Origin: Escherichia coli
GTDB lineage: Bacteria; Pseudomonadota; Gammaproteobacteria; Enterobacterales; Enterobacteriaceae
Reading direction: 5' to 3' (one strand)
Length of the DNA: 64,000 bases
NCBI GenBank assembly: GCA_009729775.1
Contig: GCA_009729775.1_4081.1
Part shown: positions 6,037-56,135 of the stretch, piece by piece
Layout of the letters: each line of letters opens with the position of its first letter
Position numbering within the stretch: the stretch's first letter is position 1
Notes under the pieces: model-generated
Databases searched by the model: none
Told to the model about the DNA's origin: nothing
What the model saw: the letters and a program-made list of their open reading frames with translations, nothing else
Position numbers and translations under genes: made by a program

Positions 6037-6041
6037 CTCTA

Positions 6042-6080
6042 GTTAAAATCAAGTATAACACACCTGAATGCTCTTGTAAA
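6042..6080 (-). promoter_or_regulatory. putative sigma70-like promoter (TTTACA-17-TATACT)
   Basis: reverse complement of gap upstream of 5458..6036. Confidence 0.35.
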
Positions 6081-6081
6081 G

Positions 6082-6111
6082 CCATAAACACAAAAAGACC
6101 CATACGGGTCT
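6082..6111 (-). terminator. rho-independent terminator
   Basis: hairpin AGACCC-atac-GGGTCT directly after stop of 6112..6678, followed by U-tract on minus strand. Confidence 0.55.
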
Positions 6112-7186: not shown

Positions 7187-7725
7187 AATTCAACCCTCAA
7201 TATTTTATCAGCAATTGATATAACCTTATCATTGAATACATTACCAATCTCAATCCTTATATACATAGCAGGTGGAATCTTTCCTTGTAGTGAATAATAT
7301 GTTTGTATACCTAAGTACTCATTATCTGATAATGAAAATTTGATTCTCTCCATATCAATGTCTGTTACTGGTAAATCTATCATTTCATAATGGTAGTCAA
7401 CGTTTTCAGTGTATATTTTATCGAAGTAATTTGAATAATCACTACTAATATAGATGCTATCATCACGAATAATCACTTTATAATCAGAAGGTTCAAATTT
7501 ATCTTTAGAAGAAAAGAATGCATCATCTATCTTCTCTTCTCTTATACCGAATAACATTTTACCATCATATTTTACATCAAGAATACTACCTAGTATATTA
7601 ATGGTACAATGCTCATCAATATTATGACGTAAAGAACGAGTCTTGTATTTTGGGTTAATGAAAATTTTCATTAATTTTATACAAATTTCAGTAATGCATT
7701 TTACATTCTCATTTTCTATGTACAT
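7183..7725 (-). CDS. hypothetical protein
   Basis: 180 aa ORF. Confidence 0.55.
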   Translation of the reverse strand: MYIENENVKCITEICIKLMKIFINPKYKTRSLRHNIDEHCTINILGSILDVKYDGKMLFGIREEKIDDAFFSSKDKFEPSDYKVIIRDDSIYISSDYSNYFDKIYTENVDYHYEMIDLPVTDIDMERIKFSLSDNEYLGIQTYYSLQGKIPPAMYIRIEIGNVFNDKVISIADKILRVEL

Positions 7726-12153: not shown

Positions 12154-12704
12154 AATAGTTCCTTATACATATGATGTACTTTACAAATCTCATTATAGTA
12201 TTTCATATCAATGTCATTTGTATTAAAAACGGAAACAGACAATACTGCTAACTTATCAATTAAGTAATTATTATCGGCGTACTCTTTTAACTTATTGAAC
12301 ATATAGATGCATTTTATGCTTAATTCATCATGCAACACACTGTTCTGAAAAATATTCTCTTCAGTATTAGGAGATAAGTAATCTTCAATTATATACGATA
12401 AACTACTATCGCAATCTTTATAGATTGAAATTGATGGATGTAATGTGTCATACATTACACTAAACAGAACACCGTCATATGTGGATATTAAACTATTATT
12501 GGAAACAGTAGGATGATAATATTTCAGTACTGAAAACTTTGAACAATCAGTGCAGTAAAAATGATCCATCCCTCGACGACTTTCGTATGAGAATAGTTTA
12601 CTTGTATATTCAATCCCTTTGGTGCGACGGATTGTTTCATGCATTTCTGCACATTGCATTAAAATTACCATACGTTCAAACGCAATATCTAAATCATCGT
12701 ACAT
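12144..12704 (-). CDS. family A paralog
   Basis: core EENIFQNSVL. Confidence 0.7.
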   Translation of the reverse strand: MYDDLDIAFERMVILMQCAEMHETIRRTKGIEYTSKLFSYESRRGMDHFYCTDCSKFSVLKYYHPTVSNNSLISTYDGVLFSVMYDTLHPSISIYKDCDSSLSYIIEDYLSPNTEENIFQNSVLHDELSIKCIYMFNKLKEYADNNYLIDKLAVLSVSVFNTNDIDMKYYNEICKVHHMYKELLCQ

Positions 12705-12885
12705 AACGGATATCCTTCTTCAGCGAATTAATATATTCCAAAATAACTTGTTCCTGATATTGGGTTCCCAAGTACATCAGGACTTTCAACTCTTTGAATT
12801 CAGTACTATATGAGTCTGTTTGCATCATTCTAGTAGAATATATATTGAATAGTTTAGCAATGTCATTTTGGTCTATTATTTTCAT
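12694..12885 (-). CDS. family B paralog (small protein)
   Basis: 63 aa; motif YLGTQYQEQV; isolated inside family A array. Confidence 0.65.
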   Translation of the reverse strand: MKIIDQNDIAKLFNIYSTRMMQTDSYSTEFKELKVLMYLGTQYQEQVILEYINSLKKDIRYVR

Positions 12886-13084
12886 ATATTCTCTTCTGGA
12901 TTAGTTCCTGTAAGTGCTGAATATAACCCTTCATTGCAACATCCTGTTTGTTAGAGCCAACGAAGAACAAGAGCTTAAAGTCATGGTAATCCATTTTTGG
13001 TTTAGTAGTGAACCATATGTCCCACACTGCACTCACAGTTCTCATGTATTCAATTCGATTAAATGTTTTTGAATACTTCATCAA
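12863..13084 (-). CDS. family B-like small protein (divergent)
   Basis: 73 aa; FVGSNKQDVAMKGYIQHL. Confidence 0.5.
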   Translation of the reverse strand: MMKYSKTFNRIEYMRTVSAVWDIWFTTKPKMDYHDFKLLFFVGSNKQDVAMKGYIQHLQELIQKRIYENNRPK

Positions 13085-27417: not shown

Positions 27418-27727
27418 TAGGCTCCTGTTTAGATTCTTTCATTAGTACTATCATCTTATGTACTAATGGCATAGGGAACTCTAAATCCCATACTAATGAT
27501 TCCTGGAAGTATTCCTCTGGTGATAAAGTACTTAAATCTTTAATATCAACGTGCTTGTATATTTTATTTTCGTAATTAACAAATGATATATATAAATCAC
27601 TAACATAAGAATCATAGGTAATTGTGAATGGCTTACCCTTGTAATCCATTACATCTCTACATAGACTACTTTTGATATATGTATGTTCAAATGATTTATA
27701 TACCTTGAGTTGTATATTAGTTTTCAT
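27383..27727 (-). CDS. family A paralog
   Basis: core PEEYFQESLV. Confidence 0.7.
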   Translation of the reverse strand: MKTNIQLKVYKSFEHTYIKSSLCRDVMDYKGKPFTITYDSYVSDLYISFVNYENKIYKHVDIKDLSTLSPEEYFQESLVWDLEFPMPLVHKMIVLMKESKQEPNGDYEEHTVEY

Positions 27728-27992
27728 ATTTCTCTTTATTAGCTTGTTTGGTTTTATAGTGAATTAAATCTATTAATGTAATCAAGTACAACTTCAAAAA
27801 GTACTCTTGATGGTTCGTACCTAATGATACAAAGAATTTATGCTCATAAATTAAAACCTGTTTCACTTCAAAAGGACACTTAATCCTCTGTATAGGTTTA
27901 AGTAAATGGTAGTACTTGTATAATCTATTATGCATTTCTAATTCAGATAGTACTTTCATATTAAACACATACTCCATTAGCTGTAGCATCAC
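27717..27992 (-). CDS. family B paralog
   Basis: motif FVSLGTNHQEYF. Confidence 0.65.
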   Translation of the reverse strand: MMLQLMEYVFNMKVLSELEMHNRLYKYYHLLKPIQRIKCPFEVKQVLIYEHKFFVSLGTNHQEYFLKLYLITLIDLIHYKTKQANKEKYEN

Positions 27993-28182
27993 GTAAAGCT
28001 GTCAAATACTTCTGTACTGCTTGCTCTTGCTTATTTGTACCTAAAAGTATATACATCCATAATTCACTGTAATGTACATCTTGTGTATAAGGGTTGTTGT
28101 AACTTTTTGATAATATAGCATCAAATTCAGATGCATGAACCCTTGTGAACTTAAGCATATCTTGTTGTGTTATGATTCTCAT
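27961..28182 (-). CDS. family B paralog
   Basis: motif ILLGTNKQEQAV. Confidence 0.7.
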   Translation of the reverse strand: MRIITQQDMLKFTRVHASEFDAILSKSYNNPYTQDVHYSELWMYILLGTNKQEQAVQKYLTALRDATANGVCV

Positions 28183-28394
28183 ATCTTTTCCTGTATAAGC
28201 TTCTTAAGAATCTCAATATATGAATTAACAGTTCTCTCTTGATGCTGTGTTCCTAAGAGTGTCAGTACTATCATATCTGAACGCAAAAGATTTTTTTCAA
28301 GTTCACTTATATCAGTTCTTGAATCAAGTGCCATATATTTGTGATTATTCTTCCTGAATAGTGCCAAGTACTCTTGATTTGATATTTCCTTCAT
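28179..28394 (-). CDS. family B paralog
   Basis: motif LTLLGTQHQERTV. Confidence 0.7.
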   Translation of the reverse strand: MKEISNQEYLALFRKNNHKYMALDSRTDISELEKNLLRSDMIVLTLLGTQHQERTVNSYIEILKKLIQEKI

Positions 28395-28618
28395 AGTCTA
28401 TCCTTGATGCCATTTAAAAGTGCTCTAATATGCTCATTGACAAAACGCTCTTGGGAATCTGTGTTTAGAGTGAGAAGCATTCTTAAATCTGAACTTTTTA
28501 TATGATATTCTAAATCATTCTTTGATTCTCGCATAAGTTTCTGAAAGGATGAGAAGTGTAATCCCATGAGTTCAATGTATTCTGCTGTTCCTAGGGGTTT
28601 GTGTATATGTTTGTGCAT
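28391..28618 (-). CDS. family B paralog
   Basis: motif LTLNTDSQERFV. Confidence 0.65.
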   Translation of the reverse strand: MHKHIHKPLGTAEYIELMGLHFSSFQKLMRESKNDLEYHIKSSDLRMLLTLNTDSQERFVNEHIRALLNGIKDRL

Positions 28619-28830
28619 TTTAATTGTATTACCCTTTTGAGTGTATTAATGTAATTATACACATTGGCTTCTTGATAGTTAGTTCCTAGAGTAGCTTGAA
28701 CGTAGATTTCATTTAACTTAATGATTTTATCAGTATCTGGTAGTTTTGATGTGTTAATGGCAAATAACTTCAAAAACAGTCCATTTATGATTGTTAGGTA
28801 TTCTTCTTCTGTAATGATTTTCATTTGCAT
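28591..28830 (-). CDS. family B paralog
   Basis: motif ATLGTNYQEANV. Confidence 0.7.
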   Translation of the reverse strand: MQMKIITEEEYLTIINGLFLKLFAINTSKLPDTDKIIKLNEIYVQATLGTNYQEANVYNYINTLKRVIQLKCTNIYTNP

Positions 28831-29036
28831 TTTCTCAGTACTGATTCTTTAAGTTCATTGATGTAGTCCTCAATGTATTGCTCTTGTAAGTTAGTTCCAA
28901 CATATAAAAGAACTCTTAAATCGGCTCTAAGTACTTCTTTGTCATCATCATCTATATCAGACAGTGTTATGTTTAAGAATTTACTTGCATTCTCTATAAG
29001 TAATATTACTGAATCACCTTCGCTTAAAATTTTCAT
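28821..29036 (-). CDS. family B paralog
   Basis: motif LYVGTNLQEQYI. Confidence 0.7.
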   Translation of the reverse strand: MKILSEGDSVILLIENASKFLNITLSDIDDDDKEVLRADLRVLLYVGTNLQEQYIEDYINELKESVLRKCK

Positions 29037-29244
29037 AATCTCTTTTTGCTTTCCTCGCCAAAAGGTACATATACGATTCTTCGTATTGTGCTTGATAGTT
29101 TGTGTTTAAGAGTCGAAACAACTTCTGTTCTGCTAGAACGAGTTGCTTATCTTCATAACAACGATAGCGTATCAACTTTTTGTATTCGATGTTGATTACA
29201 TCCATTACTATAAGCCCATGTTCATCATCTGTCAAGTGTTTCAT
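29014..29244 (-). CDS. family B paralog
   Basis: motif RLLNTNYQAQY. Confidence 0.65.
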   Translation of the reverse strand: MKHLTDDEHGLIVMDVINIEYKKLIRYRCYEDKQLVLAEQKLFRLLNTNYQAQYEESYMYLLARKAKRDYENFKRR

Positions 29245-29470
29245 GTATCTTTTCCTTAATAGTGATTTTAAGAGATTTAATTATACGTTCAACGTGATAC
29301 TCCTGTCTATCAGTTCCAAGAAGGTATGGTAGTGCTTGGAATAGAGCTTCCGCATTCTTTTCCTCTGGGGTTTGGTTTGGATCATTAGGAAGTTGATTGG
29401 CATATCTCTTGGCACTAACTAATCTCTCGACGTATTCATTATATGTTAAGTATATCATTTCATTTTGCAT
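29225..29470 (-). CDS. family B paralog
   Basis: motif YLLGTDRQEYHV; near-identical to next gene. Confidence 0.7.
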   Translation of the reverse strand: MQNEMIYLTYNEYVERLVSAKRYANQLPNDPNQTPEEKNAEALFQALPYLLGTDRQEYHVERIIKSLKITIKEKIHETLDR

Positions 29471-29696
29471 TTACTTTTTCCTTAATAGTAATTTTAAGAT
29501 ATTTAATTATACGTTCAATGTGATACTCTTGCCTATCAGTTCCAAGAAGGTATGGTAATCTTTGGAATAAAACTTCTGCACTCCTTTCTGCTGGGGTTTG
29601 GTTTGTGTTGTGAGGAAGTTTATTTGTAAGTCTTTTGGATTTATCTAGTCTTTCTGTTAACTCATCATGTGTTAAGTATATCATTTCCTTTTGCAT
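29460..29696 (-). CDS. family B paralog
   Basis: motif YLLGTDRQEYHI; near-identical to previous gene. Confidence 0.7.
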   Translation of the reverse strand: MQKEMIYLTHDELTERLDKSKRLTNKLPHNTNQTPAERSAEVLFQRLPYLLGTDRQEYHIERIIKYLKITIKEKVNAK

Positions 29697-29923
29697 TTAA
29701 TGTTCCTTACGTAAATTGTCTGGATTAAACAATCAATCCACGTTTGAATATATTGGTTTTGATACTGTGTGCCTAAAAGACTCTGCATTTTAAACTCTGC
29801 TTCAAGTTCATATCTCTTTTCTATAGAAAAGCTTAAATGACCATATTCCCTATCGTATCTTCTATGAGCTTCGCCAAGTCTATCAAATCTTTCTGATAAT
29901 CTGATGTTATTAATTTTATTCAT
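29681..29923 (-). CDS. family B paralog
   Basis: motif SLLGTQYQNQYI. Confidence 0.7.
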   Translation of the reverse strand: MNKINNIRLSERFDRLGEAHRRYDREYGHLSFSIEKRYELEAEFKMQSLLGTQYQNQYIQTWIDCLIQTIYVRNIKCKRK

Positions 29924-30210
29924 CGCTCAGTACACCTTAGTGGACGGGTCATTTGATAAAAGTACAGCTTACCTCTGATTTCCATTAGTAATTCATTTAA
30001 TACGCGTTCTACCTCTTGTTCTTGATAGTTCGTGCCTAACAATGCACCCATCTTTAACTCACGCATCATAATCATCTTCTTACTGTGTTGAATTTCTGGG
30101 TTGTGATAGATTGTATTACGTTTAAGAGTAATTTTTGCCATACGCTCGGTATATTCATCTTTACTTAAATTAATCATTTTCATGTTAATTACCCTTACAT
30201 TTATTTTCAA
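29920..30210 (-). CDS. family B paralog
   Basis: motif ALLGTNYQEQEV; start may be internal Met. Confidence 0.65.
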   Translation of the reverse strand: MKINVRVINMKMINLSKDEYTERMAKITLKRNTIYHNPEIQHSKKMIMMRELKMGALLGTNYQEQEVERVLNELLMEIRGKLYFYQMTRPLRCTER

Positions 30211-30415
30211 TACTATTCATGAGTTCTATAAGATAGTTTTCTACCTTACCTTCCTGATAGTTAGTCCCTAGGAAGTTGCACAACACGGCTTCTATAATTT
30301 TGATTTTCCTGATATCCGACTTCAATCTTTTGTTATTGAATATTTGAATCCTTATATCTCTGGATGCATTTAAACGTTTTTGATAGTCATGGTAAGTTAA
30401 ATGAATCATTTTCAT
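30185..30415 (-). CDS. family B paralog
   Basis: motif NFLGTNYQEGKV. Confidence 0.7.
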   Translation of the reverse strand: MKMIHLTYHDYQKRLNASRDIRIQIFNNKRLKSDIRKIKIIEAVLCNFLGTNYQEGKVENYLIELMNSIENKCKGN

Positions 30416-30630
30416 TTACGTTTAACCTCTCGCTGGAGGGCATCAATTAACATTAGTACAGCATTCTCTTGATAGTTTGTTCCTAAGACTGAAAGCATCT
30501 TTATCTCATTTACTAAAATCAACTTCTTTGAGGGTTCAATAATGTGACTATCATAAACGGCCTTACGTGCTGGATAAGTTTTCGCCAGTATAACATAAAA
30601 TTCGTCTTTACTTAAATTAATCATTTGCAT
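30412..30630 (-). CDS. family B paralog
   Basis: motif SVLGTNYQENAV. Confidence 0.7.
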   Translation of the reverse strand: MQMINLSKDEFYVILAKTYPARKAVYDSHIIEPSKKLILVNEIKMLSVLGTNYQENAVLMLIDALQREVKRK

Positions 30631-30839
30631 TTACTTTTAACCTCTTTCTGTAGAGCGTCAATCCATAGATCTACATACATTTGTTGATAGTTTGTGTCTA
30701 TTAGTGCACCTACATAGAGTTCAGCTACCATTGCGTGCTTTATGTCAATAGGGATGCTCTTATCAGATTGAATCTTTCTCCTTCTGCTTCCACATGTTTT
30801 CAGGAGCCTGATGTATTCAAAACCTTGTAAATTTCTCAT
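30621..30839 (-). CDS. family B paralog
   Basis: motif ALIDTNYQQMYV. Confidence 0.65.
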   Translation of the reverse strand: MRNLQGFEYIRLLKTCGSRRRKIQSDKSIPIDIKHAMVAELYVGALIDTNYQQMYVDLWIDALQKEVKSKCK

Positions 30840-31051
30840 ATTTTGGATACCACCTTGTTACGTAAGGAACTTAATAATACGTCAGTGTAGATGTTTTGAT
30901 AGTTTGTTCCTACGAATGCACCCAACTTCATTTCAGCTATTATAACACATTTGTCCTCTTGTGCAATAGACTTGTCTAAAGAAATACTAACAACTTTCCC
31001 TCTTATAGTTTGTAACCTCCAATGATACTGATACTCATTAAGGATTATCAT
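30836..31051 (-). CDS. family B paralog
   Basis: motif AFVGTNYQNIYT. Confidence 0.7.
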   Translation of the reverse strand: MIILNEYQYHWRLQTIRGKVVSISLDKSIAQEDKCVIIAEMKLGAFVGTNYQNIYTDVLLSSLRNKVVSKI

Positions 31052-31298
31052 TCTCTCGTCTCCAGATTTCGGTTCTCATGTGTTGGCAGTGTGCATCAAT
31101 ATATTGCTCTATCGATCTGGCGATTGCTGTTTTATCAGTGCCTGTCATCAGTACAAGCATCTCTGCCTCACTATGAATTAAACGCATGATATCATAGGGT
31201 AATATTTCAGATACTGTATCATAGTGTTTGTGTGTCAGTGTCTGCAATAGTTTACAATACATTTTGTGATTTAGTCTTTGTCGCATTGTTTCTTCCAT
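31038..31298 (-). CDS. family B paralog (divergent)
   Basis: motif region LMTGTDKTAIA, same size and position in array. Confidence 0.5.
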   Translation of the reverse strand: MEETMRQRLNHKMYCKLLQTLTHKHYDTVSEILPYDIMRLIHSEAEMLVLMTGTDKTAIARSIEQYIDAHCQHMRTEIWRRENDNP

Positions 31299-31543
31299 TC
31301 TCTTCTGGCTTGACGGGTTTTTTCTGATATTTCGTTTCTCAATGCAGAGATATATCGTAGAGTGAACAGTTCTTGATAGTTAGTCCCTATGAATTTATTA
31401 AGATATACATCAGCGTTGACGATATCAGCTTCACGGGAATTATAAAGTTTATTGTTCGTGCGAAGGGTGTTTAGAAGAGAGAAGAGGGCAGTCTGATACT
31501 CAGTGCTTGATAAAGTTTTCATATTTTTCCACAATTCGTTCAT
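31271..31543 (-). CDS. family B paralog
   Basis: motif KFIGTNYQELFT. Confidence 0.65.
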   Translation of the reverse strand: MNELWKNMKTLSSTEYQTALFSLLNTLRTNNKLYNSREADIVNADVYLNKFIGTNYQELFTLRYISALRNEISEKTRQARREWKKQCDKD

Positions 31544-31757
31544 TTAGTTTTATCTGTATAAGATCCATTAGTTGTTCAAGATAATCGGTACAATATTTCT
31601 CTTGATATTGGGTTCCCACAAAGTACAGCAACCATAGCTCATGAACTTTAACTTTCATCTCGTTCCATGAAAGTGCATCGTCATCGTAGATTACTCTTGC
31701 TTCTGGGGTGAGCTTTCTAACTCTAATTGAATATTCATCGTCAGTTAAGTGTTTCAT
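31500..31757 (-). CDS. family B paralog
   Basis: motif YFVGTQYQEKYC. Confidence 0.65.
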   Translation of the reverse strand: MKHLTDDEYSIRVRKLTPEARVIYDDDALSWNEMKVKVHELWLLYFVGTQYQEKYCTDYLEQLMDLIQIKLNERIVEKYENFIKH

Positions 31758-31972
31758 TTACATTTATCCCTTATTAGATTTGTGAGGGCAACTATGTGTG
31801 CAACAACATACTCTTCCTGAAAGTTCGTCCCCAGTACAGCCATCATGCGTATATCGGTGGTGTTTATCCTGTGTTCCCTTACACATAAACCTTCTTTGTG
31901 AGGAAGTGTAAAATATTTGTTTATTGCAGCAATGACAATTTTATTCTTCTCGGTGATACTTAAATGTTTCAT
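31754..31972 (-). CDS. family B paralog
   Basis: motif AVLGTNFQEEYV. Confidence 0.7.
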   Translation of the reverse strand: MKHLSITEKNKIVIAAINKYFTLPHKEGLCVREHRINTTDIRMMAVLGTNFQEEYVVAHIVALTNLIRDKCK

Positions 31973-32181
31973 AGTTTACTCCTGATATAATTCTGAAGTG
32001 CAATTAAGTATTCCCCTACATAATACACCTGAAAGTCTGTATCAAGGAATGCACCCATAAGTAAATCTTTTTCTAATACCCTTGATAAGTTAAGGTCTGC
32101 ATTTGAAAGGTATATAAGTAAGATTTCACCCTGTGCGGAATTGAAACGTTTCTTATATTCTTCTGGTGTTAAAAAAATCAT
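31969..32181 (-). CDS. family B paralog
   Basis: motif AFLDTDFQVYYV; close paralog of next gene. Confidence 0.65.
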   Translation of the reverse strand: MIFLTPEEYKKRFNSAQGEILLIYLSNADLNLSRVLEKDLLMGAFLDTDFQVYYVGEYLIALQNYIRSKL

Positions 32182-32393
32182 AATTTGCTCCTGATATATT
32201 TCTCAAGAGATGACAAATACTTTTCCTCATAATACTTCTGATAGTCTGTTCCTAAGAATGCACCCAATAGTATATCATTTTCCAATACCTCGGCTAAGTT
32301 TAAATCAGAAGTCTCTTCGTATATTATGAGGATTTCAAGTTGTCTGGCAGCGATGCGTTCAGTATATTGATATGAGTTTTCTATAATAATCAT
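32178..32393 (-). CDS. family B paralog
   Basis: motif AFLGTDYQKYYE. Confidence 0.7.
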   Translation of the reverse strand: MIIIENSYQYTERIAARQLEILIIYEETSDLNLAEVLENDILLGAFLGTDYQKYYEEKYLSSLEKYIRSKL

Positions 32394-32599
32394 AATTTAC
32401 TCTTTATATCTTCTATTAAAAATCGAATCCATTCTTCAACATAATCTTCCTGATGGTTTGTGTTCAGTACAGCCAACATGCGGATCTCTGCTCTTGCAAC
32501 TTCAATTTCAGTTTTAGGAAGGTCTTTGCTGATATCCACCATTAAGTCCATGTATTTCAAGATAAGTCCGAATGATTGGGTTCGTGTTATAGTTTTCAT
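32390..32599 (-). CDS. family B paralog
   Basis: motif AVLNTNHQEDYV. Confidence 0.65.
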   Translation of the reverse strand: MKTITRTQSFGLILKYMDLMVDISKDLPKTEIEVARAEIRMLAVLNTNHQEDYVEEWIRFLIEDIKSKL

Positions 32600-32796
32600 T
32601 GTTTCCTCGTGGACAATGTTTTATTTTTCAATGTATCCACATATTTCGTTACCCATGCATCCTGATAGTTAGTTCCCAATGTAATCAAAAGGTATAACTC
32701 CATTCGTTCTACGTGTGAGTCTGTATTATAAATCTTTGTGAAGTTTTTACGTAACAGTGCTTGATATTCTTTTTCGGTTAATTTACGCATTTTCAT
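32596..32796 (-). CDS. family B paralog
   Basis: motif ITLGTNYQDAWV. Confidence 0.7.
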   Translation of the reverse strand: MKMRKLTEKEYQALLRKNFTKIYNTDSHVERMELYLLITLGTNYQDAWVTKYVDTLKNKTLSTRKQ

Positions 32797-32990
32797 AGTT
32801 TACTCGTTACATCTTCAATTAAATACCAAATCCAATCGTTGACATACCTTTCCTGAAAGTTAGTTCCAATGAATAGTGCCATAATTAATTCACGCTTATA
32901 GGCAATACCACGGTCATGGGACTTATACATTATCATAGCCATGTTATTGATAAGTCTTTCGTGGTGTTCTGCTTGAGTTAAAATACGCAT
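32793..32990 (-). CDS. family B paralog (first gene of array)
   Basis: motif LFIGTNFQERYV; start set at internal Met (MRILTQ) with AAGGGAG RBS; the track start at 33020 would lie inside the promoter. Confidence 0.6.
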   Translation of the reverse strand: MRILTQAEHHERLINNMAMIMYKSHDRGIAYKRELIMALFIGTNFQERYVNDWIWYLIEDVTSKL

Positions 32991-33020
32991 AGGGACTCCC
33001 TTAAAATTAATATCAATCAT

Positions 33021-50479: not shown

Positions 50480-50561
50480 GCTGTTACCCCTATCGTTGTT
50501 GTATAAAAGAAATCTATTATAAAGTACTATCACCGTGCAATAGTACTTTTAATCTATTCTC

Positions 50562-50801
50562 TTACATTCCAACCATCGCCGCACGGATCGCAGTAGTGCT
50601 ATACTTAAAGCCGTCCGGTGTTTTATCTTGTCCAGTCTGTTCTAAAAATAGCATCATATGACGGGCCGCATCATTACGATTAGTGTTAGCGGCAATAAAG
50701 TCCTGGGCCAACCGGTATAATGATTCGTCGTTATTAATCCAAAGGCTTACATTCCATTGAGTTTTGTTTTTGTGACCTAAGAACATTTTTGATTTAGCCA
50801 T
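50562..50801 (-). CDS. hypothetical protein
   Basis: start at MAKSKMFLG; track extension covers hairpin. Confidence 0.5.
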   Translation of the reverse strand: MAKSKMFLGHKNKTQWNVSLWINNDESLYRLAQDFIAANTNRNDAARHMMLFLEQTGQDKTPDGFKYSTTAIRAAMVGM

Positions 50802-50814
50802 TTTTTTAATCCTC

Positions 50815-50885
50815 TTATATAGTGGGGAACTATTCCCCACCTGATGTAAAACATTATACGCTTTTAAACTTAGTTTGCAAGTACT
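50815..50885 (-). promoter_or_regulatory. early promoter cassette (TTGCAA-16-TATAAT) and hairpin GGGGAA-tagt-TCCCC
   Basis: reverse complement of intergenic region. Confidence 0.55.
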
Positions 50886-50894
50886 TTATTAAAC

Positions 50895-51257
50895 TTATTC
50901 GTAAATCTTTCCACTATCAGCCCATACCAGGAAACGAGGCATATTATCCCATGCATCTTGTTTTAAATTTAAACCGTGTAATACTTCTGTACTTTCCATT
51001 CCTGGTACTGGTTTACTATACACCGCGAACATTTCGCCCATGTACTGATAAGCCATCGTTAAATCACTGGCGATCATCTTATGAATCATCGCATCAAGCA
51101 TCACGGTAGCGGCGTATTGTTCACGCTTAAGCGGTAACATTGCAATAAGTTCCCGATAAGCTGAAATGTGAATTTTTACCGTTTCAGCCGGAAGATCTTT
51201 CATCTCTTCACGGAAGTTAACCAGGTTAGCAATAATTTTAGTGATTTGAGTAGCCAT
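50895..51257 (-). CDS. hypothetical protein
   Basis: start at MATQITKII. Confidence 0.55.
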   Translation of the reverse strand: MATQITKIIANLVNFREEMKDLPAETVKIHISAYRELIAMLPLKREQYAATVMLDAMIHKMIASDLTMAYQYMGEMFAVYSKPVPGMESTEVLHGLNLKQDAWDNMPRFLVWADSGKIYE

Positions 51258-51280
51258 CGTTTTAATCTCTCTTAAAGTGT

Positions 51281-51345
51281 AGCGGGAAGTGTTCCCGCTC
51301 TCGATGTAAAACATTATACGCCTATCGGGATAGTATGCAAGTACT
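51281..51345 (-). promoter_or_regulatory. early promoter cassette and hairpin GCGGGAA-gtg-TTCCCGC
   Basis: reverse complement of intergenic region. Confidence 0.5.
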
Positions 51346-51563
51346 TTCTACTAATACTTTTAAAATAGTTTTCTTTCTATATAGGAGTACTATCATTCAG
51401 TACTGAATCAACCAAATCACTACTATACCCCATAAAACGGCCTCAGCCGCTTTCTAACGCATTAATACACCTAAGCTATACATTTGCACCGCCACCAGCT
51501 AACCAGGGCTTTATAGGCCGTTTAAGGGCGTTAAATTATTTTCAATTATTTTGTTTTTAGCTA

Positions 51564-51700
51564 TTGACTCAGTACAAAAAAAGCGTATAATTACTACATA
51601 GACGCGAGAAAGCGGATACCCCAGGGGGTGGGAAGATCCGTCCAAAATTCATATAATTTAAAAAGGATACACTCCCGCACCTTAGCAGGTCATAGCACTT
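51564..51700 (+). ncRNA. candidate small RNA unit driven by TTGACT-16-TATAAT
   Basis: promoter 51564-51591 in non-coding region; downstream GACGCGAGAAAGCGG...GATCCGTC element related to 48300 copy. Confidence 0.2.
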
Positions 51701-51778
51701 TCTCAGTACTGAATCATAGTACCATAGTACGCCCCTGGATGGCAAGCAAATTAATTAAAACTTTTTACATCCAGGGTA

Positions 51779-51870
51779 TTGCTTTATTTTTCCAGTACTG
51801 TATAATAGTTTCATCAAGTCGAGAAAGACTCAAGCCCACCGGGTGCATAGTTGTATCTAAAATTCAGTAC
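51779..51870 (+). ncRNA. candidate small RNA unit driven by TTGCTT-16-TATAAT
   Basis: promoter 51779-51806; downstream GTCGAGAAAGACTCAAGCCCACCGGGTGCATAG element. Confidence 0.2.
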
Positions 51871-52029
51871 TGAATTATTTTTTAAAAATATCCATCCAGG
51901 CGGTTGACATATCCATCAAAAAGATAGATAATGATTCCAGATTCAGAAAAATCTAACTCCAGATACTGCGGGGAAACCATCCCCACGCGGTAGGGGAACT
52001 ATTGGAAAAAACAAAATAAAAATTTTGAT

Positions 52030-52150
52030 TTAGCCGTCTGTACTTCCAGACGTGTAACCATCTAGCCGTTTAGCCGTCCAAACGTCTAGCCATCCAGCCG
52101 CCTAGAGGGATAGCCATCTTTACTTCCAGACTTCTGGAGGGCTAGACATA
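52030..52150. repeat. iteron-like short direct repeats (AGCCGTC / AGCCATC / ACTTCCAGAC)
   Basis: at least 7 copies of AGCC[GA]T[CT] within 120 bp, non-coding. Confidence 0.5.
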
Positions 52151-52742
52151 TCTACGTCCAAAATCCACCCAGGGTAACTACGCCCAAAATCCGTCAGTAC
52201 TATACTATAGATCTATCTTTTGAAAGGGAGTATTCAGTACTGCCACAATAGCCCTCACTGTTACTGTAGGAGGATGAAGACTATCATGTAGTACTGAATA
52301 CTGTTAGAGGGAATCCACCAGCTTGTGCTGGTGGCATAATGCATTAGATTAAAATCAGTACTGACACCATTCTGTTAATATCAGTACTGTTTATATTACG
52401 AAAAAAGAGGTTATAAAAAGATGTACCACCCATAGGAGGAACTATCCTTTCAGTACTGTCTCACGACAGGAGGTAGAGTGAATGAATTGTTTGCGGCAAC
52501 TCATCTCTCTATGTAGAACATTATACAGTACTGAATCATAATGTCAATAGCTTTCTTTCATTATTCAGTACTGAAATCGTATAATCTGTATCGCTACAAA
52601 ACTCATTATATCCCACAAATCCTATATGTCCCAACGTAAATTTCAACTTTCGAAGATCCAACTTTTATTTCATAGGTACTCCAAATTTTTTACGATCCAG
52701 ATTTAGGATGGAGTACTAACCAACTTTTTGCTGGAGCCTCAA

Positions 52743-52790
52743 GGGGTAATTGAATTTTACCCCGAATGGTAAAGGGGTAATTGAAATTAA
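52743..52790. repeat. GGGGTAATTGAA direct repeat x2, first copy part of a palindrome
   Basis: GGGGTAAttgaattTTACCCC then aaaGGGGTAATTGAAA. Confidence 0.45.
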
Positions 52791-52820
52791 GGTGAAAGTA
52801 ATAATTCAGTACTAATCATT

Positions 52821-53052
52821 GCGTGATTACTTTTGATTACATTTGATGTAATTTGCAAAATGGAAAAGGAGCTTGGAAACTACAAAGTACGGCAGACTTC
52901 CTCTGCCTACTTAGTGGCATATCAGTACTGCTACGTTCTTGATTAAACGTGAACATTCCTGTACTCTAGTACTCACTACTGATCACTACAGTGATTATAA
53001 ATGATTACTTAAATGTTTATATATGATTACTTATGACTACCTATGATTACGG
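52821..53052. repeat. TGATTAC phased direct repeats (two clusters)
   Basis: TGATTAC x2 plus inverted GTAATC at 52821-52850; 5 copies of TGATTA[CT]/TGACTAC at roughly 10-bp spacing in 52990-53052. Confidence 0.5.
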
Positions 53053-53164
53053 GGTTTAGCCTGGGGAGAATCCTAGTGATCGCATTTGTCCAGGCTGAAT
53101 TTTAACAATTCGCCTGTACATAAAGGTTGTTCACTAGGAGCTTCCCCTGTCTACTTGTGTTTAA

Positions 53165-53356
53165 TTACTTCCTATATATAAGCATTAAGATATAGTAGTA
53201 CTGATTATACTGTACATTCTCTTTAATATTATAAGGGTCTATCGCAATCTCGGTACATCTGTTAAATGCATATCTATTAAATGCCAGTGGAATTATAGAT
53301 CTAATCCATACTTGTTCATTTTCTTTTAGTTTACTTATATAGAAGTTTTTATACAT
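53165..53356 (-). CDS. family D small protein
   Basis: 63 aa; C-terminal YYYILMLIYRK. Confidence 0.55.
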   Translation of the reverse strand: MYKNFYISKLKENEQVWIRSIIPLAFNRYAFNRCTEIAIDPYNIKENVQYNQYYYILMLIYRK

Positions 53357-53371
53357 AGTATTCTCTATTAA

Positions 53372-53599
53372 TTAATATGATAGTACTAGTGTTAGTACTG
53401 AGCACAATTGTTCTTTATAGTTCTTAGGGTATATAGAATCTTTTATGCACTCATTGAAGTGCCATAGGTATAATCTTGGGTCGCATTCTTTATATATTCT
53501 TACGGGGACGAATGTTAGTTTTCGTATATAGAATTCTTTATGTTCTTTATTCATATTAGTACCTGAATATAAGTAGGATAGTGTTATATAGCTGGTCAT
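53372..53599 (-). CDS. family D small protein
   Basis: likely start at MNKEHKEFY; C-terminal LCSVLTLVLSY. Confidence 0.55.
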   Translation of the reverse strand: MTSYITLSYLYSGTNMNKEHKEFYIRKLTFVPVRIYKECDPRLYLWHFNECIKDSIYPKNYKEQLCSVLTLVLSY

Positions 53600-53744
53600 A
53601 TGTACTACTATTTTCTATACTTCGTTCTATGCAGTTATTGAATCCCAGTACTGCCAAATCGTTATCCAGGGGGACTTTGTATCTGGCGTAGTGTTCAAAA
53701 ATGCTGGGGAGAAATTGTTTGTAGTATTCTTTGTGGTTATTCAT
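53556..53744 (-). CDS. family D small protein
   Basis: MNNHKEYY...NNCIERSI...LYNTILLIFRY. Confidence 0.6.
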   Translation of the reverse strand: MNNHKEYYKQFLPSIFEHYARYKVPLDNDLAVLGFNNCIERSIENSSTYDQLYNTILLIFRY

Positions 53745-53745
53745 A

Positions 53746-53991
53746 TTAGTACCTGAATGTTAGCATTACTACGTAGTACAGCATATATGGATTATCATCG
53801 TATATGAGCGTGTACTTAGTACATTGTTGGAACATTATCTTTGCGTGATCTTTTATTCCTATTGGTTCTGTTGGTATATGGTGCTGGAGATGCATAGGGA
53901 TTTTATCCCTGTAGTATTCTTTATGCATAGTTTGTAATATACGTAATGAGGTGATGCATTTTCTTATTAGTACTGATAAGTTCCTGTACAT
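53746..53991 (-). CDS. family D small protein
   Basis: likely start at MHKEYYRDK; C-terminal YVVMLTFRY. Confidence 0.55.
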   Translation of the reverse strand: MYRNLSVLIRKCITSLRILQTMHKEYYRDKIPMHLQHHIPTEPIGIKDHAKIMFQQCTKYTLIYDDNPYMLYYVVMLTFRY

Positions 53992-54580
53992 GTTTTGTTA
54001 GTTTGTACGCGTTTTTATAGAGTCCTGGATTATCGATTACAGTACTGTACATGAATTCTTCTTCTGGTGTTAATTCTTTGTTTTGTAGTTCTTTTAGGAA
54101 TTGCAGTACTGTATCAGTTTCGTTAGTACGTTGCTTTTGGAAGAAGTGCATGTTATCGTGTATTTTTTCTGAACCCATGCAGTACATATCGCCGATTTGG
54201 AATTGTGCAGTACTGATATCATGGGTGCTATTACAATTCCCGAAGAAGTATACATTCCCGAAAGATAGAATTATAGTGCACGGGATATTATCCATGTGTA
54301 TATAGATAGATGCATTCTTTAGTGCTTTTGTGCTGGTATTAGTACTCAATACTTTTAAATCAGTATTATAGATATTAATAAAAGCAAGAGCTATATTATT
54401 TTTCTTCAAGTACGATTTGAGGTTCTTAGATACGAGAACATTTCTGGATTTTTTCTTTTTATTTCGTTTCTTTAGTACATTTGGGTGATACATATATGCA
54501 GATGTAATAGATTCTGCTTGAATACTGTTGAGGTACTTAAAGTGCTTAAGGTATTGTTTGCTGTGTGCATTAAGTTTCAT
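53921..54580 (-). CDS. hypothetical protein with family A-like core
   Basis: 219 aa; EEEFMYSTVI resembles family A core with M in place of Q. Confidence 0.55.
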   Translation of the reverse strand: MKLNAHSKQYLKHFKYLNSIQAESITSAYMYHPNVLKKRNKKKKSRNVLVSKNLKSYLKKNNIALAFINIYNTDLKVLSTNTSTKALKNASIYIHMDNIPCTIILSFGNVYFFGNCNSTHDISTAQFQIGDMYCMGSEKIHDNMHFFQKQRTNETDTVLQFLKELQNKELTPEEEFMYSTVIDNPGLYKNAYKLTKHVQELISTNKKMHHLITYITNYA

Positions 54581-54593
54581 TTGGTTTCCTTTA

Positions 54594-54773
54594 TACAGAT
54601 GCCAGGGCGAGGATTTCCCTGTAGGGATTATCTTGTGTTAGTACAGCATAAATGCAGCTATTGAGATTAATATTTTTAGTACTTTTTGTTCCTAGGTTGT
54701 AGTACTTCACGAAGGTGTCGTACATGAAACGGTCGTTAATGCTTATTCTTTCTATATAGTATTCTTGCATAGT
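54594..54773 (-). CDS. family D-like small protein (below track cutoff)
   Basis: 59 aa ORF MQEYYIERIS...NSCIYAVL. Confidence 0.35.
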
Positions 54774-54778
54774 GTACC

Positions 54779-54961
54779 TTAAATAGCGATTAGTTTCATT
54801 ACTTCTCTGTATGTATACTTTTCGTTTTGTGCATCTCTTGTGACGACATATAGGAAGGTGTGTTTATCTTTTTTGTTCCCGCAATTGTAGAAAATATTGA
54901 ACTTATTGAAGTTGAATCTTTCGGCGTGTTGTAGTTTAGTTAAATAGAATTCTATGTTCAT
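54779..54961 (-). CDS. family D small protein
   Basis: MNIEFYLTKL...YREVMKLIAI. Confidence 0.55.
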   Translation of the reverse strand: MNIEFYLTKLQHAERFNFNKFNIFYNCGNKKDKHTFLYVVTRDAQNEKYTYREVMKLIAI

Positions 54962-54969
54962 TTTATTCC

Positions 54970-55155
54970 TTACATTTCAATAAGTTTCAGTACTGCTCGG
55001 TACGTGTACTTAGTTGTCAGTGCTTCTTTAATAGAAATACAGAAGTAATGTTGTTTGTCTCTTATACTGCCGCGTTTGTAGTACCACACATGGGAGTTGT
55101 GACTGTACTTGTCTCTGTCGGATAGTTGTTGGTAGTAGTAGCTTATATGATTCAT
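54970..55155 (-). CDS. family D small protein
   Basis: MNHISYYYQQL...YRAVLKLIEM. Confidence 0.55.
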   Translation of the reverse strand: MNHISYYYQQLSDRDKYSHNSHVWYYKRGSIRDKQHYFCISIKEALTTKYTYRAVLKLIEM

Positions 55156-55207
55156 TGTAATGCAATTATCCTTACTATATTAAAGTACTCGATCCTTGGT
55201 GTACTTT

Positions 55208-55402
55208 TTAGAACTTAAAGATGAGGTTCAGGATAGAGCGGTACTTAGTTGCAGGGAACGTATGTTCTATTGCATCACGTGTCTCCATCCTGAAATCGTA
55301 ATTGTAATATAGATTATTCTTTCTCATAGGTCGTGCTAAAGAGAATGATAGCTGTTCTTGCTTGTGTAGTTTACTACAATAGAAATCTTTATGATTATTC
55401 AT
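55208..55402 (-). CDS. family D small protein
   Basis: MNNHKDFYCSKL...YRSILNLIFKF. Confidence 0.6.
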   Translation of the reverse strand: MNNHKDFYCSKLHKQEQLSFSLARPMRKNNLYYNYDFRMETRDAIEHTFPATKYRSILNLIFKF

Positions 55403-55604
55403 AGAAGTAGATTAGTCCTATTAAACCTGAGTACATAATATTTTTGTTATTGCATTCGATTGCTTCTAGAGTACTACGTATACAATTATTAAAGCAATCT
55501 CTACCGAAGTGAGTATTGGTACTTACAGGTGATACACTCCTTAGAAACAATTGTTCTTCGTTGCTAAGGTATTTGGTGTAGAATTCTTTATGTTCAGTAT
55601 TCAT
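55395..55604 (-). CDS. family D small protein
   Basis: MNTEHKEFYTKYL...NNCIRSTL...LIGLIYFYE. Confidence 0.6.
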   Translation of the reverse strand: MNTEHKEFYTKYLSNEEQLFLRSVSPVSTNTHFGRDCFNNCIRSTLEAIECNNKNIMYSGLIGLIYFYE

Positions 55605-55605
55605 A

Positions 55606-55809
55606 TTAGTGCTCGATTAATAGGGTCAGGATATAATAGTATTGCATACTTTCTGCCCCTTGTAAAGCATTTCTTATTTTATTATTCCTGTACGAGTTCA
55701 GGAGTTTAGGACAACGTTTGTAGTCTATAAAAGTATTTTGTGTATACAGTAGGCTTTCTCGTAGACCTTTTGTTGGTAGTGCATCGATGTAGTACTGTTC
55801 AATGTTCAT
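55606..55809 (-). CDS. family D small protein
   Basis: MNIEQYYIDAL...YYYILTLLIEH. Confidence 0.55.
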   Translation of the reverse strand: MNIEQYYIDALPTKGLRESLLYTQNTFIDYKRCPKLLNSYRNNKIRNALQGAESMQYYYILTLLIEH

Positions 55810-56033
55810 ATAGATAGCAGTACTAAGATTTTTGATAATTGTTTATTGCTATCCCCGCAGATGTTGCTGTGTAAAATACTCACAATGAGGGTATCAATTG
55901 CATTGTTCATCATAAGGGTGCATCCTGGACTATTATAATTTTTTAGCTCAATTAGCCACGAACTATCCGCGAGAAATTCCCCGTACTCTAGTTCATTTAG
56001 AGTATTGAGGTAGTACTTAAGAGTATTTGTCAT
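55806..56033 (-). CDS. family D small protein (first gene of operon)
   Basis: MTNTLKYYLNTL...; promoter TTGACA-17-TACTAT and GGAG RBS upstream. Confidence 0.55.
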   Translation of the reverse strand: MTNTLKYYLNTLNELEYGEFLADSSWLIELKNYNSPGCTLMMNNAIDTLIVSILHSNICGDSNKQLSKILVLLSI

Positions 56034-56135
56034 GTGTAGTTCTCCTTATATTCCTTCTATAGTACACCAGTACTGAAAGGATGTCAAGGGTTTTCTTTAT
56101 GGGGTAAATATGATATAATGAATAAGGAGGGATTT
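56034..56135. promoter_or_regulatory. divergent promoter region
   Basis: minus-strand TTGACA-17-TACTAT for family D operon; plus-strand TATAAT and AAGGAGG RBS for first RCC1-like gene. Confidence 0.45.

What the first reader, a model, noticed from the sequence alone, without database searches (positions are those of the whole stretch)
53165..56033. Third paralogous family of small proteins (family D)
Eleven to twelve minus-strand genes of 59-80 aa share an N-terminal M(N)xxHKE[FY]Y, a central NxCI[EKR] and a hydrophobic C-terminus of L.LI..[YF] type. They are transcribed divergently from the RCC1-like array. A 219-aa gene with a family A-like core (EEEFMYSTVI) sits in the middle of the block.
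Basis: seen in the sequence. Interest (0 to 1): 0.55.

Follow-up and report, generated by a model that had tools for sequence, protein, structure and literature searches.

The report
Variable small-gene array in jumbo coliphage
A giant E. coli phage of the 121Q group carries one operon of eleven small, related four-helix proteins of unknown function; close relatives carry 15 to 22 copies, which is an ordinary kind of phage accessory-gene expansion rather than a new type of system.

Summary
Window 53165-56033 (minus strand) carries 11 small ORFs (59-75 aa after two start corrections) and one 219-aa ORF, tightly packed behind a single sigma70-type promoter. Nine small ORFs are clearly homologous by leave-one-out HMM, one is probable, and the head gene (55806-56033) is doubtful.

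The window is an Asteriusvirus (121Q/PBECO4-like jumbo coliphage). The family occurs only in that genus: 23 hits among 1.84 billion representative proteins, and 34 phage records. It has no Pfam, NCBIfam or PDB match. PHROG 11711 (function unknown) covers 6 of the 11.

AlphaFold gives a confident soluble four-helix domain (pLDDT 88). The conserved residues form its hydrophobic core. The hydrophobic C-terminus is too short to cross a membrane.

Eight relatives carry 15-22 copies drawn from at least 29 subtypes, and the window's 11 is the fewest seen. The order is collinear, and the indel breakpoints compared lie in the conserved junction and 5' coding sequence.

The 219-aa gene shares only the short family A motif (hhalign E 9e-6 over 19 columns) and lacks that family's invariant Gln.

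The most likely reading is an early, host-directed accessory operon (host takeover or anti-defence) shaped by unequal recombination. The function is inferred, not shown. This is a new member of a known kind, of modest interest.

The parts
56059..56087 (-). sigma70-type promoter of the array: TTGACA, 17 nt (containing CAGTACTG), TACTAT
   Evidence: Consensus scan gives 10/12 and the pattern search finds it. It is identical in 121Q, JP4, phAPEC6 and PBECO4 apart from one spacer base. In metagenome contig L010 the -35 hexamer is identical and the -10 reads TATAAT, while the spacer differs.
56042..56047 (-). Shine-Dalgarno AAGGAG of the head gene, the only strong one in the operon
   Evidence: Upstream sequences of all 12 genes.
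55806..56033 (-). Head gene, subtype A, 75 aa, pI 4.7; doubtful member of family D
   Evidence: Leave-one-out E 4.9. hhalign against the rest gives E 0.007 over 14 columns. It always occupies first position in the array. L010 carries a divergent allele (27% identity).
55606..55809 (-). Family D member, subtype B, 67 aa; probable member
   Evidence: Leave-one-out E 0.03. hhalign E 4.5e-4 over 55 columns. Overlaps gene A by 4 nt (ATGA).
55395..55604 (-). Family D member, subtype C, 69 aa
   Evidence: Leave-one-out E 4.2e-6.
55208..55402 (-). Family D member, subtype D, 64 aa
   Evidence: Leave-one-out E 6.2e-6. Overlaps gene C by 8 nt.
54970..55155 (-). Family D member, subtype E, 61 aa; preceded by the only sizeable gap (52 nt), which holds a weak promoter-like site
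   Evidence: Leave-one-out E 6.4e-9. Gap and site at 55183-55154.
54779..54961 (-). Family D member, subtype F, 60 aa
   Evidence: Leave-one-out E 2.5e-4.
54591..54770 (-). Family D member, subtype J, 59 aa
   Evidence: Leave-one-out E 5.9e-3. dN is about equal to dS against orthologues.
53921..54580 (-). 219-aa basic protein (pI 9.5, Lys-rich stretch at residues 37-47) embedded in the operon; carries the family A-like motif EEEFMYSTVI
   Evidence: phrog_29152, function unknown. hhalign against 38 family A paralogues gives prob 83%, E 9.4e-6, 19 columns. It always lies between subtype J and the downstream block. The AlphaFold model is unusable (pLDDT 38). pI.
53746..53928 (-). Family D member, subtype K, 60 aa (corrected start; overlaps the 219-aa gene by 8 nt)
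   Evidence: Leave-one-out E 1.9e-4. Start as in 121Q gp257/258.
53556..53744 (-). Family D member, subtype N, 62 aa; its first 25 nt equal those of subtype M in relatives
   Evidence: Leave-one-out E 3.7e-6. Sequence comparison. AlphaFold four-helix model, pLDDT 88.
53372..53554 (-). Family D member, subtype T, 60 aa (corrected start)
   Evidence: Leave-one-out E 1e-6.
53165..53356 (-). Family D member, subtype U, 63 aa; last gene of the array
   Evidence: Leave-one-out E 2.5e-8. Always last in the array.
52891..52907 (-). First terminator-like hairpin downstream of the array; a weak candidate for the operon end
   Evidence: Consensus scan. Not tested further.
56088..57284 (+). Divergent neighbour: upstream element and first RCC1-like gene; the true start is probably 56136 (MLPFARM)
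   Evidence: Pfam RCC1 repeats. The element TAAATAT(A/G)(G/A)TATAAT + AAGGAGG, with no -35 hexamer, recurs before all six MLPFARM starts; the other five also have a preceding hairpin plus T-run. Orthologues gp549 and gp551 are virion proteins in phAPEC6 (PMC7247149).

Best explanation
Window 53165-56087 is one polycistronic operon of an Asteriusvirus jumbo coliphage.

Shown directly: a host-type (sigma70) promoter and one strong ribosome-binding site lead into 12 genes. These genes are separated by -8 to +15 nt, with one 52-nt gap. Eleven encode 59-75-aa proteins. Nine are clearly, and a tenth probably, old and strongly diverged paralogues of one soluble four-helix domain. The conserved residues are the aromatic and aliphatic core. 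The surface, helix 2 and net charge (pI 4.7-9.6) differ from copy to copy.

Also shown: the only DNA similarity left between copies is at the stop/start junction and the first ~25-40 nt of coding sequence. The indel breakpoints located against 121Q and JP4 fall there. Nine genomes hold 11-22 copies drawn from at least 29 subtypes, in collinear order with a few transpositions. The head gene (A), the ~220-aa gene and the tail gene (U) are present in all nine.

Inferred: the operon is transcribed early by host RNA polymerase. Its products are accessory, host-directed binders (host takeover or anti-defence). Each copy would present a different surface on a common scaffold. The repertoire would be reshuffled by unequal or inter-phage homologous recombination.
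For: Identity and range:
- 94.6% DNA identity to phage 121Q; all 36 near matches are Escherichia or Salmonella Asteriusvirus-like phages.
- tblastn finds the family in 34 records of the same group only.
- An exhaustive profile search of 1.84e9 representative proteins gives 23 hits. All are 44-75 aa except one eukaryotic zinc-finger false positive.

Family reality.

Coding:
- ORFs are intact in every genome compared.
- Pooled dN/dS is 0.22-0.51.
- The AlphaFold model is confident: pLDDT 88, pTM 0.69, four helices.

Core conservation: high-information columns are Y7, Y8, L12, F35, I39, L43, Y52, I55, L56, L58 and I59.

Operon and promoter:
- Gene spacing.
- TTGACA-17-TACTAT at 56087-56059. It is nearly invariant in four relatives. 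In L010 the hexamers persist despite a changed spacer.
- 21 TTGACA..TAYNAT matches in the window against 1.9 expected, 20 of them on the gene strand.
- In related phages, RpoD-like promoters mark a suspected early region of short hypothetical genes (CBB, PMC5259590). PA5oct relies on host RNA polymerase, and its early genes are mostly uncharacterised (PMC7318152).

Not virion-associated: the phAPEC6 virion proteome lists RCC1-like gp549 and gp551 but none of gp540c-548c, although it did detect a 4.7-kDa protein.

Copy-number variation and recombination:
- Array strings.
- Breakpoints with 25-40 nt of shared homology.
- Junction-only repeats.
- M-type 5' end on the N gene.
- Gene-by-gene mosaic identity between phages.
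Against: - No expression, interaction or phenotype data exist for any member.
- The early timing rests on a consensus promoter and on analogy with related phages.
- There is no match to any defence or anti-defence resource available here. PADLOC gave one hit at E 0.01, which is noise.
- dN/dS is below 1 overall. The apparent excess of replacements in subtypes B, D and J rests on fewer than 10 substitutions each.
- Paralogues are old (15-35% identity), so this is not a recent amplification responding to a current selective pressure.
Confidence: 0.45

Rival explanations
1. The small proteins serve the phage itself. They could be regulators, adaptors or chaperones, for example assembly helpers for the neighbouring virion-associated RCC1-like propeller proteins or for the 'hairy' whiskers.
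For: The array always adjoins the RCC1-like array. RCC1-like gp549 and gp551 are virion proteins. Small helical proteins are typical chaperones (general knowledge).
Against: Orientation is opposite and the promoter type differs: sigma70 -35/-10 for the array, against the -35-less TAAATAT(A/G)(G/A)TATAAT element before each RCC1 gene. The array's gene content varies between close relatives (11-22 copies), which fits dispensable accessory genes better than assembly factors; RCC1 copy numbers were not tallied per genome.
Confidence: 0.15
2. The genes are largely dispensable products of tandem duplication. They persist as tolerated filler in a headful-packaged jumbo genome, without copy-specific functions.
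For: Hua et al. proposed genome growth by tandem duplication in 121Q (PMC5646251). Relatives tolerate losing up to half the copies. Some copies show dN about equal to dS.
Against: No copy is frameshifted or truncated in the well-sequenced genomes. Several subtypes (A, E, F, K, T, U) show synonymous but no, or almost no, replacement changes. Paralogues diverged to 15-35% identity yet kept the same core, which needs long-term purifying selection.
Confidence: 0.2
3. They are small DNA- or nucleoid-associated proteins, packaged or intracellular, acting with the so-called 'DNA condensation' RCC1-like proteins.
For: Five of the 11 have pI 9.3-9.6 (three more 7.9-8.8), most are Tyr-rich, and the embedded 219-aa protein is very basic, with a KKRNKKKKSR stretch.
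Against: pI ranges down to 4.7 and no charged patch is conserved. They were not found among the 62 phAPEC6 virion proteins. No DNA-binding fold was recovered.
Confidence: 0.07
4. They are membrane-anchored proteins, such as superinfection-exclusion or lysis-timing factors, inserted through the hydrophobic C-terminus.
For: The C-terminal L.LI.. segment is hydrophobic.
Against: The hydrophobic run is about 11 residues. The maximum 19-residue Kyte-Doolittle mean is 1.18, and 0.2-0.6 for most members. AlphaFold packs the segment into a four-helix bundle at pLDDT about 90.
Confidence: 0.04

Closest known systems
PHROG 11711 (with phrog_29152 for the 219-aa gene): hypothetical proteins gp249-265 of Escherichia phage 121Q and their orthologues in PBECO4, phAPEC6, JP4 and others
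   Same: These are direct orthologues, 84-100% identical for most genes, in the same order and with the same flanks.
   Different: The window has the shortest array seen (11 small genes against 15-22). The PHROG profile recognises only 6 of the 11. No function is attached to the family.
Host-takeover modules and early small-ORFan regions of large lytic phages: the SPO1 26-gene host-takeover module, the suspected early region CBB_390-546 of phage CBB, and the early genes of PA5oct
   Same: Clusters of short proteins without database homologues, sitting behind host-type promoters (PMC6873191; PMC5259590; PMC7318152). The window shows the same promoter type and gene size.
   Different: Those modules consist of mostly unrelated genes. 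Here ten or eleven genes are paralogues of one fold. Early expression and host targets have been demonstrated for SPO1 and are only inferred here. There is no sequence relationship.
Lineage-specific tandem expansions in giant viruses and jumbo phages: the >30-gene array reported in 121Q and phage G, and the ~35 zinc-ribbon copies in phage G
   Same: A tandem array of paralogues whose copy number varies between relatives (PMC5646251; PMC7824862).
   Different: Family D is a different and smaller family from the >30-copy 121Q array. It is unrelated to family A and to the 72-aa family in this window. Its copies are old and diverged rather than 'very similar'.
Family A of this window: at least 38 paralogues at 68-27727 with the core (D/E)EE(Y/F/L)FQxS(T/L)(V/I)
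   Same: The 219-aa gene inside the array carries EEEFMYSTVI, aligned to that core (E 9.4e-6; HMM domain i-E 0.0086).
   Different: The similarity is confined to 19 columns. The family's invariant Gln is replaced by Met, and that Met is itself invariant in 22 orthologues. jackhmmer does not recruit the gene. Family D itself shows no relation to family A.

Membership tests
Family D (this array; partly PHROG 11711) | Significant profile similarity to the other members when the tested member is left out | tested here: met
   Met for 9 of 11 (E 6e-9 to 6e-3) and marginal for 55606-55809 (0.03; hhalign 4.5e-4). Not met for 55806-56033 (4.9; hhalign 0.007 over 14 columns).
Family D (this array; partly PHROG 11711) | Match to the published PHROG profile | tested here: inconclusive
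   phrog_11711 hits 6 of the 11 members at E<=0.01 (best 8e-26). The other five match no PHROG.
Family D (this array; partly PHROG 11711) | Common fold: a four-helix domain with a conserved aromatic/aliphatic core | tested here: inconclusive
   Only subtype N was modelled (pLDDT 88). Core columns are conserved across 108 sequences.
Family A superfamily (EExFQxSxV core) | Invariant Phe-Gln dipeptide inside the acidic-aromatic core motif | tested here: not met
   The 219-aa gene has F176-M177 (FM, not FQ), invariant in 22 orthologues. F and Q are the only invariant internal columns of the 38 family A paralogues.
Family A superfamily (EExFQxSxV core) | Full-length profile similarity | tested here: not met
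   hhalign aligns only 19 columns. jackhmmer from four seeds never recruits the 219-aa gene. Full-sequence HMM E is 0.059.
Early (host RNA polymerase-dependent) host-takeover genes | sigma70-type promoter upstream | tested here: met
   TTGACA-17-TACTAT at 56087-56059, conserved in relatives. This is a consensus match only.
Early (host RNA polymerase-dependent) host-takeover genes | Transcription in the first minutes of infection, and an effect on a host process | not testable with these tools
   No transcriptome or functional study of an Asteriusvirus turned up in the library search.
Integral membrane / holin-like small proteins | A hydrophobic span long enough to cross the membrane | tested here: not met
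   The maximum 19-residue Kyte-Doolittle mean is 1.18 and the hydrophobic run is about 11 residues.
Known anti-phage defence proteins (PADLOC) and curated families (Pfam, NCBIfam, PDB) | Profile match above threshold | tested here: not met
   Pfam: only noise, E>=0.02. NCBIfam: none. PADLOC: one hit at E 0.01. PDB sequences: none at E<=1.

The most novel reading that the evidence does not exclude
The array is a cassette-type repertoire locus. The conserved stop/start junction and the first ~25-40 nt of each gene (MN.HKE[FY]Y) would be kept not only for the protein. They would also act as recombination handles that let whole gene units be lost, gained, converted and exchanged between co-infecting Asteriusviruses. 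Each phage would then carry a different subset (11-22 of at least 29 subtypes) of four-helix binders aimed at variable host targets such as defence systems. That would be a phage counterpart of the variable effector or immunity arrays of bacteria.
Probability: 0.2. Interest if true: 0.6.

Novelty: new member of a known kind. Interest (0 to 1): 0.3.

Why it matters
Jumbo phages of the 121Q group are being isolated for therapy, and more than 80% of their genes are unannotated.

This work turns 12 'hypothetical proteins' into one defined operon. It gives a family definition, a confident fold and a map of which units are constant (A, J, the 220-aa gene, U) and which are variable.

If the small proteins are host-directed, the variable units are natural candidates for host-range or anti-defence determinants. 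The natural 11-copy and 22-copy variants already provide a ready-made comparison.

The finding does not reveal a new kind of system.

Tried and rejected
1. Membrane anchor. Rejected on hydropathy and on the AlphaFold bundle.
2. Relationship of family D to family A or to the 72-aa family. hhalign probabilities were 0.07% and 3%.
3. The idea that the 219-aa gene's 'YSTV' motif merely reflects the over-represented DNA palindrome CAGTACTG, which it does contain at 54040. Only 4 of 39 family A-type genes encode the motif with that octamer, and codons vary, so conservation is at the protein level.
5. Structure of the 219-aa protein. pLDDT 38, unusable.
6. Pfam, NCBIfam, PADLOC and PDB sequence searches. 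Nothing.
7. tRNA and Rfam searches of 50500-56500. Nothing.
8. I first read the window's N gene as an M/N deletion chimera. EC.P1 and BF17 carry the same 62-aa N variant and still have M. The shared 5' end therefore shows exchange between paralogue 5' ends, but not necessarily the deletion event itself.
9. GC-skew inversion near 52-53 kb as an origin signal. It is more simply explained by the unusual amino-acid composition of family D, but this was not analysed rigorously.
10. Literature. No paper in the held library describes this family. Only general remarks on tandem arrays in 121Q and phAPEC6 were found.
Full report
**What the window is.** The region 53000-56200 is 94.6% identical to Escherichia phage 121Q. 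It matches 36 phage records, all Escherichia or Salmonella phages of the genus Asteriusvirus or close to it. In 121Q the corresponding stretch is annotated as gp249-gp265, all 'hypothetical protein'. It is flanked on one side by 'putative DNA condensation (RCC1-like)' genes. The window is AT-rich (30-39% GC) and densely packed with minus-strand ORFs up to 56033. From there the RCC1-like genes run on the plus strand.

**Checking the observation.**
- Between 53165 and 56033 there are 11 small minus-strand ORFs and one of 219 aa.
- Two of the longest-ORF starts are too far upstream. Internal ATGs that give the conserved N-terminus and match the 121Q annotation put these genes at 53372-53554 and 53746-53928. 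Sizes are then 59-75 aa.
- The HMM of all 11 finds nothing else among the window's 264 ORFs (next best E 0.22).
- Profile-profile comparison using orthologues makes 55606-55809 a probable member (E 4.5e-4 over 55 columns). It leaves the head gene doubtful (E 0.007 over 14 columns).
The second Tyr of E[FY]Y and the Leu of the C-terminal L.LI are invariant in the window. 'NxCI' is strict in only 3-5 members.

**Anatomy of the locus.**
- The 12 genes are separated by -8 to +15 nt, apart from one 52-nt gap before 54970-55155.
- Only the head gene has a strong Shine-Dalgarno sequence (AAGGAG). Several others start at ATGA or TAATATG overlaps, as expected for translational coupling.
- Upstream of the head gene lies TTGACA-17 nt-TACTAT at 56087-56059. 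This 130-nt region is nearly invariant in 121Q, JP4, phAPEC6 and PBECO4.
- In a divergent metagenome contig (L010) the -35 hexamer is identical and the -10 reads TATAAT, while the spacer differs. That pattern is expected of a functional promoter.
- Across the window, TTGACA..TAYNAT occurs 21 times against 1.9 expected, 20 of them on the gene strand.
- The RCC1-like genes on the other side use a different element. Before the five downstream genes this is a hairpin with a T-run followed by TTAAATATAGTATAAT and AAGGAGG, with no -35 hexamer. The first gene, which faces the array, has the closely related GTAAATATGATATAAT and AAGGAGG without a preceding hairpin.
- Two RCC1-like orthologues are virion proteins in phAPEC6, whereas none of gp540c-548c is listed (PMC7247149).
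- The divergent arrangement is therefore real, and the two sides probably belong to different temporal classes. The timing itself is inferred.

**The protein.**
- AlphaFold2, run on a 57-sequence alignment, gives a four-helix domain for subtype N: pLDDT 88, pTM 0.69, helices 3-9, 14-21, 28-44 and 48-60.
- In a 108-sequence alignment (Neff 31), the informative columns are Y7, Y8, L12, F35, I39, L43, Y52, I55, L56, L58 and I59. These are aromatic or aliphatic positions spaced as helix faces. Helix 2, the loops and the exposed positions carry little information.
- pI ranges from 4.7 to 9.6. No member has a 19-residue hydropathy window above 1.18. The hydrophobic C-terminus is therefore a core helix, not a membrane anchor.
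- Pfam, NCBIfam, PADLOC and PDB sequence searches are empty. phrog_11711 (function unknown) recognises 6 of the 11.

**Distribution.**
- A profile search of 5.8 billion proteins found 47 clusters.
- An exhaustive HMMER pass over 1.84 billion representatives found 23 hits. All are 44-75 aa except one eukaryotic zinc-finger false positive.
- tblastn finds the family in 34 phage records, all Escherichia or Salmonella Asteriusvirus-like.
- The family is genus-restricted.

**Copy number and evolution.** I located members with the HMM in eight related genomes and grouped them at 60% identity into 29 subtypes. This gives the following arrays in transcription order:

| Genome | Copies | Array |
|---|---|---|
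| window | 11 | A B C D E F J [219] K N T U |
| 121Q | 16 | A B C D E F J [220] V K M N O P Q T U |
| JP4 | 21 | A B C D E F G H I J [220] K L M N O P Q R S T U |
| PBECO4 | 17 | not reproduced here |
| phAPEC6 | 18 | not reproduced here |
| EC.P1 | 21 | not reproduced here |
| BF17 | 22 | not reproduced here |
| SD-6_S16 | 15 | not reproduced here |
| A4 | 17 | not reproduced here |

- The head gene, J, the ~220-aa gene and U are constant. The interior varies.
- Paralogues are only 15-35% identical, whereas most orthologue pairs compared are 84-100% identical (one, subtype F against JP4, is 62%). The array is old, and the differences between phages are unit losses, gains and exchanges rather than recent amplification.
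- The only DNA repeats between units lie at gene starts and stop/start junctions.
- Where the window differs from 121Q and JP4, the flanking alignments overlap by 25-40 nt exactly there.
- The window's N gene begins with 25 nt that belong to subtype M in 121Q and JP4. The same N variant occurs in EC.P1 and BF17, which retain M. This shows exchange between 5' ends rather than proving a particular deletion.
- Gene-by-gene identity to different phages is mosaic. For example, C is 100% identical to phAPEC6 but 91% to 121Q, and F is 100% to 121Q but 62% to JP4.
- Pooled dN/dS between the window and four relatives is 0.22-0.51. Subtypes A, E, F, K, T and U show almost only synonymous change. B, D and J show dN about equal to or above dS, on small counts.
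- The genes are therefore real and under selection, but unevenly so.

**The 219-aa gene.**
- It is phrog_29152 (function unknown), basic (pI 9.5) and has a KKRNKKKKSR stretch. It sits in the same place in every array.
- At least 38 minus-strand paralogues at 68-27727 share (D/E)EE(Y/F/L)FQxS(T/L)(V/I), in which F and Q are the only invariant internal columns.
- The 219-aa gene is the best non-member hit of that family's HMM (domain i-E 0.0086). hhalign aligns 19 columns at the motif with probability 83% and E 9.4e-6.
- However, it has FM instead of FQ, and that Met is invariant in 22 orthologues. jackhmmer never recruits it.
- The motif is not an artefact of the CAGTACTG palindrome it happens to contain.
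Membership in family A is not established. Its AlphaFold model is unusable.

**Interpretation.** Several features together resemble the early accessory regions of other large lytic phages:
- a host-type promoter;
- very small soluble products;
- a conserved core with diversified surfaces;
- restriction to one genus;
- absence from the virion proteome;
- presence/absence variation between close relatives.

Comparable regions are the SPO1 host-takeover module (PMC6873191), the suspected early region of the related phage CBB (PMC5259590) and the early genes of PA5oct (PMC7318152). I therefore favour an early, host-directed accessory operon (host takeover or anti-defence) whose repertoire is reshaped by homologous recombination at the conserved junctions. 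Everything about function is inference. The rivals are a phage-internal chaperone or regulator role, tolerated duplicates, DNA-associated proteins and membrane proteins. They are listed with their tests.

**Novelty.** Tandem paralogue arrays in 121Q-type phages have been noted in general terms (PMC5646251; PMC7247149). The proteins are already in public records and partly in PHROGs. What is added here:
- the family definition;
- the fold;
- the operon structure;
- the subtype map;
- the junction-recombination pattern.

This is a new member of a known kind, of modest interest.

Noticed in passing
whole window; e.g. 56068-56075, 54040-54047, 52526-52533: The palindrome CAGTACTG occurs 60 times against 0.8 expected, and its core AGTACT occurs 253 times (58 against 4.4 expected in the 121Q locus). 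It lies in the spacers of many sigma70-like promoters (TTGACA...AGTACTGTATAAT). Related AGTACT-type hairpins (GCCAGTACTTGATACTGGC) precede five of the six RCC1-like genes. It also occurs inside coding sequence. Strong enrichment of a palindrome is unusual for a phage and suggests a binding or modification site.
   Followed up: partly
window 51315-53164: A 1.85-kb stretch directly downstream of the array has no ORF longer than 44 aa. It holds 11 CAGTACTG sites, three near-perfect sigma70 promoters on both strands, and short tandem repeats of period 10-16. No tRNA or Rfam family matches. It is 85-91% conserved in nine relatives, and in phage A4 it is better conserved (85%) than the family D array (76-79%). 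It may hold non-coding RNAs or be a regulatory or origin region.
   Followed up: partly
window 56088-64000 (+), starts at 56136, 57358, 58538, 59778, 62292, 63516: The five downstream RCC1-like genes are each preceded by the same cassette: a hairpin with a T-run, then TTAAATATAGTATAAT and AAGGAGG. The first has a variant of the promoter-like element without the hairpin. Each gene therefore looks like its own transcription unit. The first gene probably starts at 56136 (MLPFARM), not 56118. Several mechanical ORF starts in this array (58376, 59712, 62226) read through the hairpin and are probably too long.
   Followed up: partly
window 68-27727 (-): At least 38 paralogues of 100-215 aa share one short core, (D/E)EE(Y/F/L)FQxS(T/L)(V/I), with F and Q invariant. 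Some copies read EEGYFQGS or EEMYFQGS, which from memory resembles the ExxYxQ(G/S) site of TEV/3C-type proteases. Whether these proteins are processed there was not tested.
   Followed up: no
window 27717-33020 and 12694-13081 (-): A separate family of 24 tandem ~72-aa genes has the conserved motif LGTNYQE. It is unrelated to family D at profile level, and phrog_4148 (function unknown) matches one tested member.
   Followed up: partly
L010 110-376 (metagenome contig SRR1984031_261): In an otherwise near-identical array, the head gene is replaced by an 81-aa allele only 27% identical to subtype A. The upstream promoter keeps its -35 hexamer and has a consensus TATAAT at -10, but lacks CAGTACTG in the spacer.
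   Followed up: partly
L002 (Escherichia phage CMSTMSU, MH494197.1) 2660-7700: The family D genes of this 'UNVERIFIED' record are broken into fragments by apparent frameshifts. Many public Asteriusvirus records leave several of the small genes unannotated. Copy counts taken from annotations alone would therefore be misleading.
   Followed up: no
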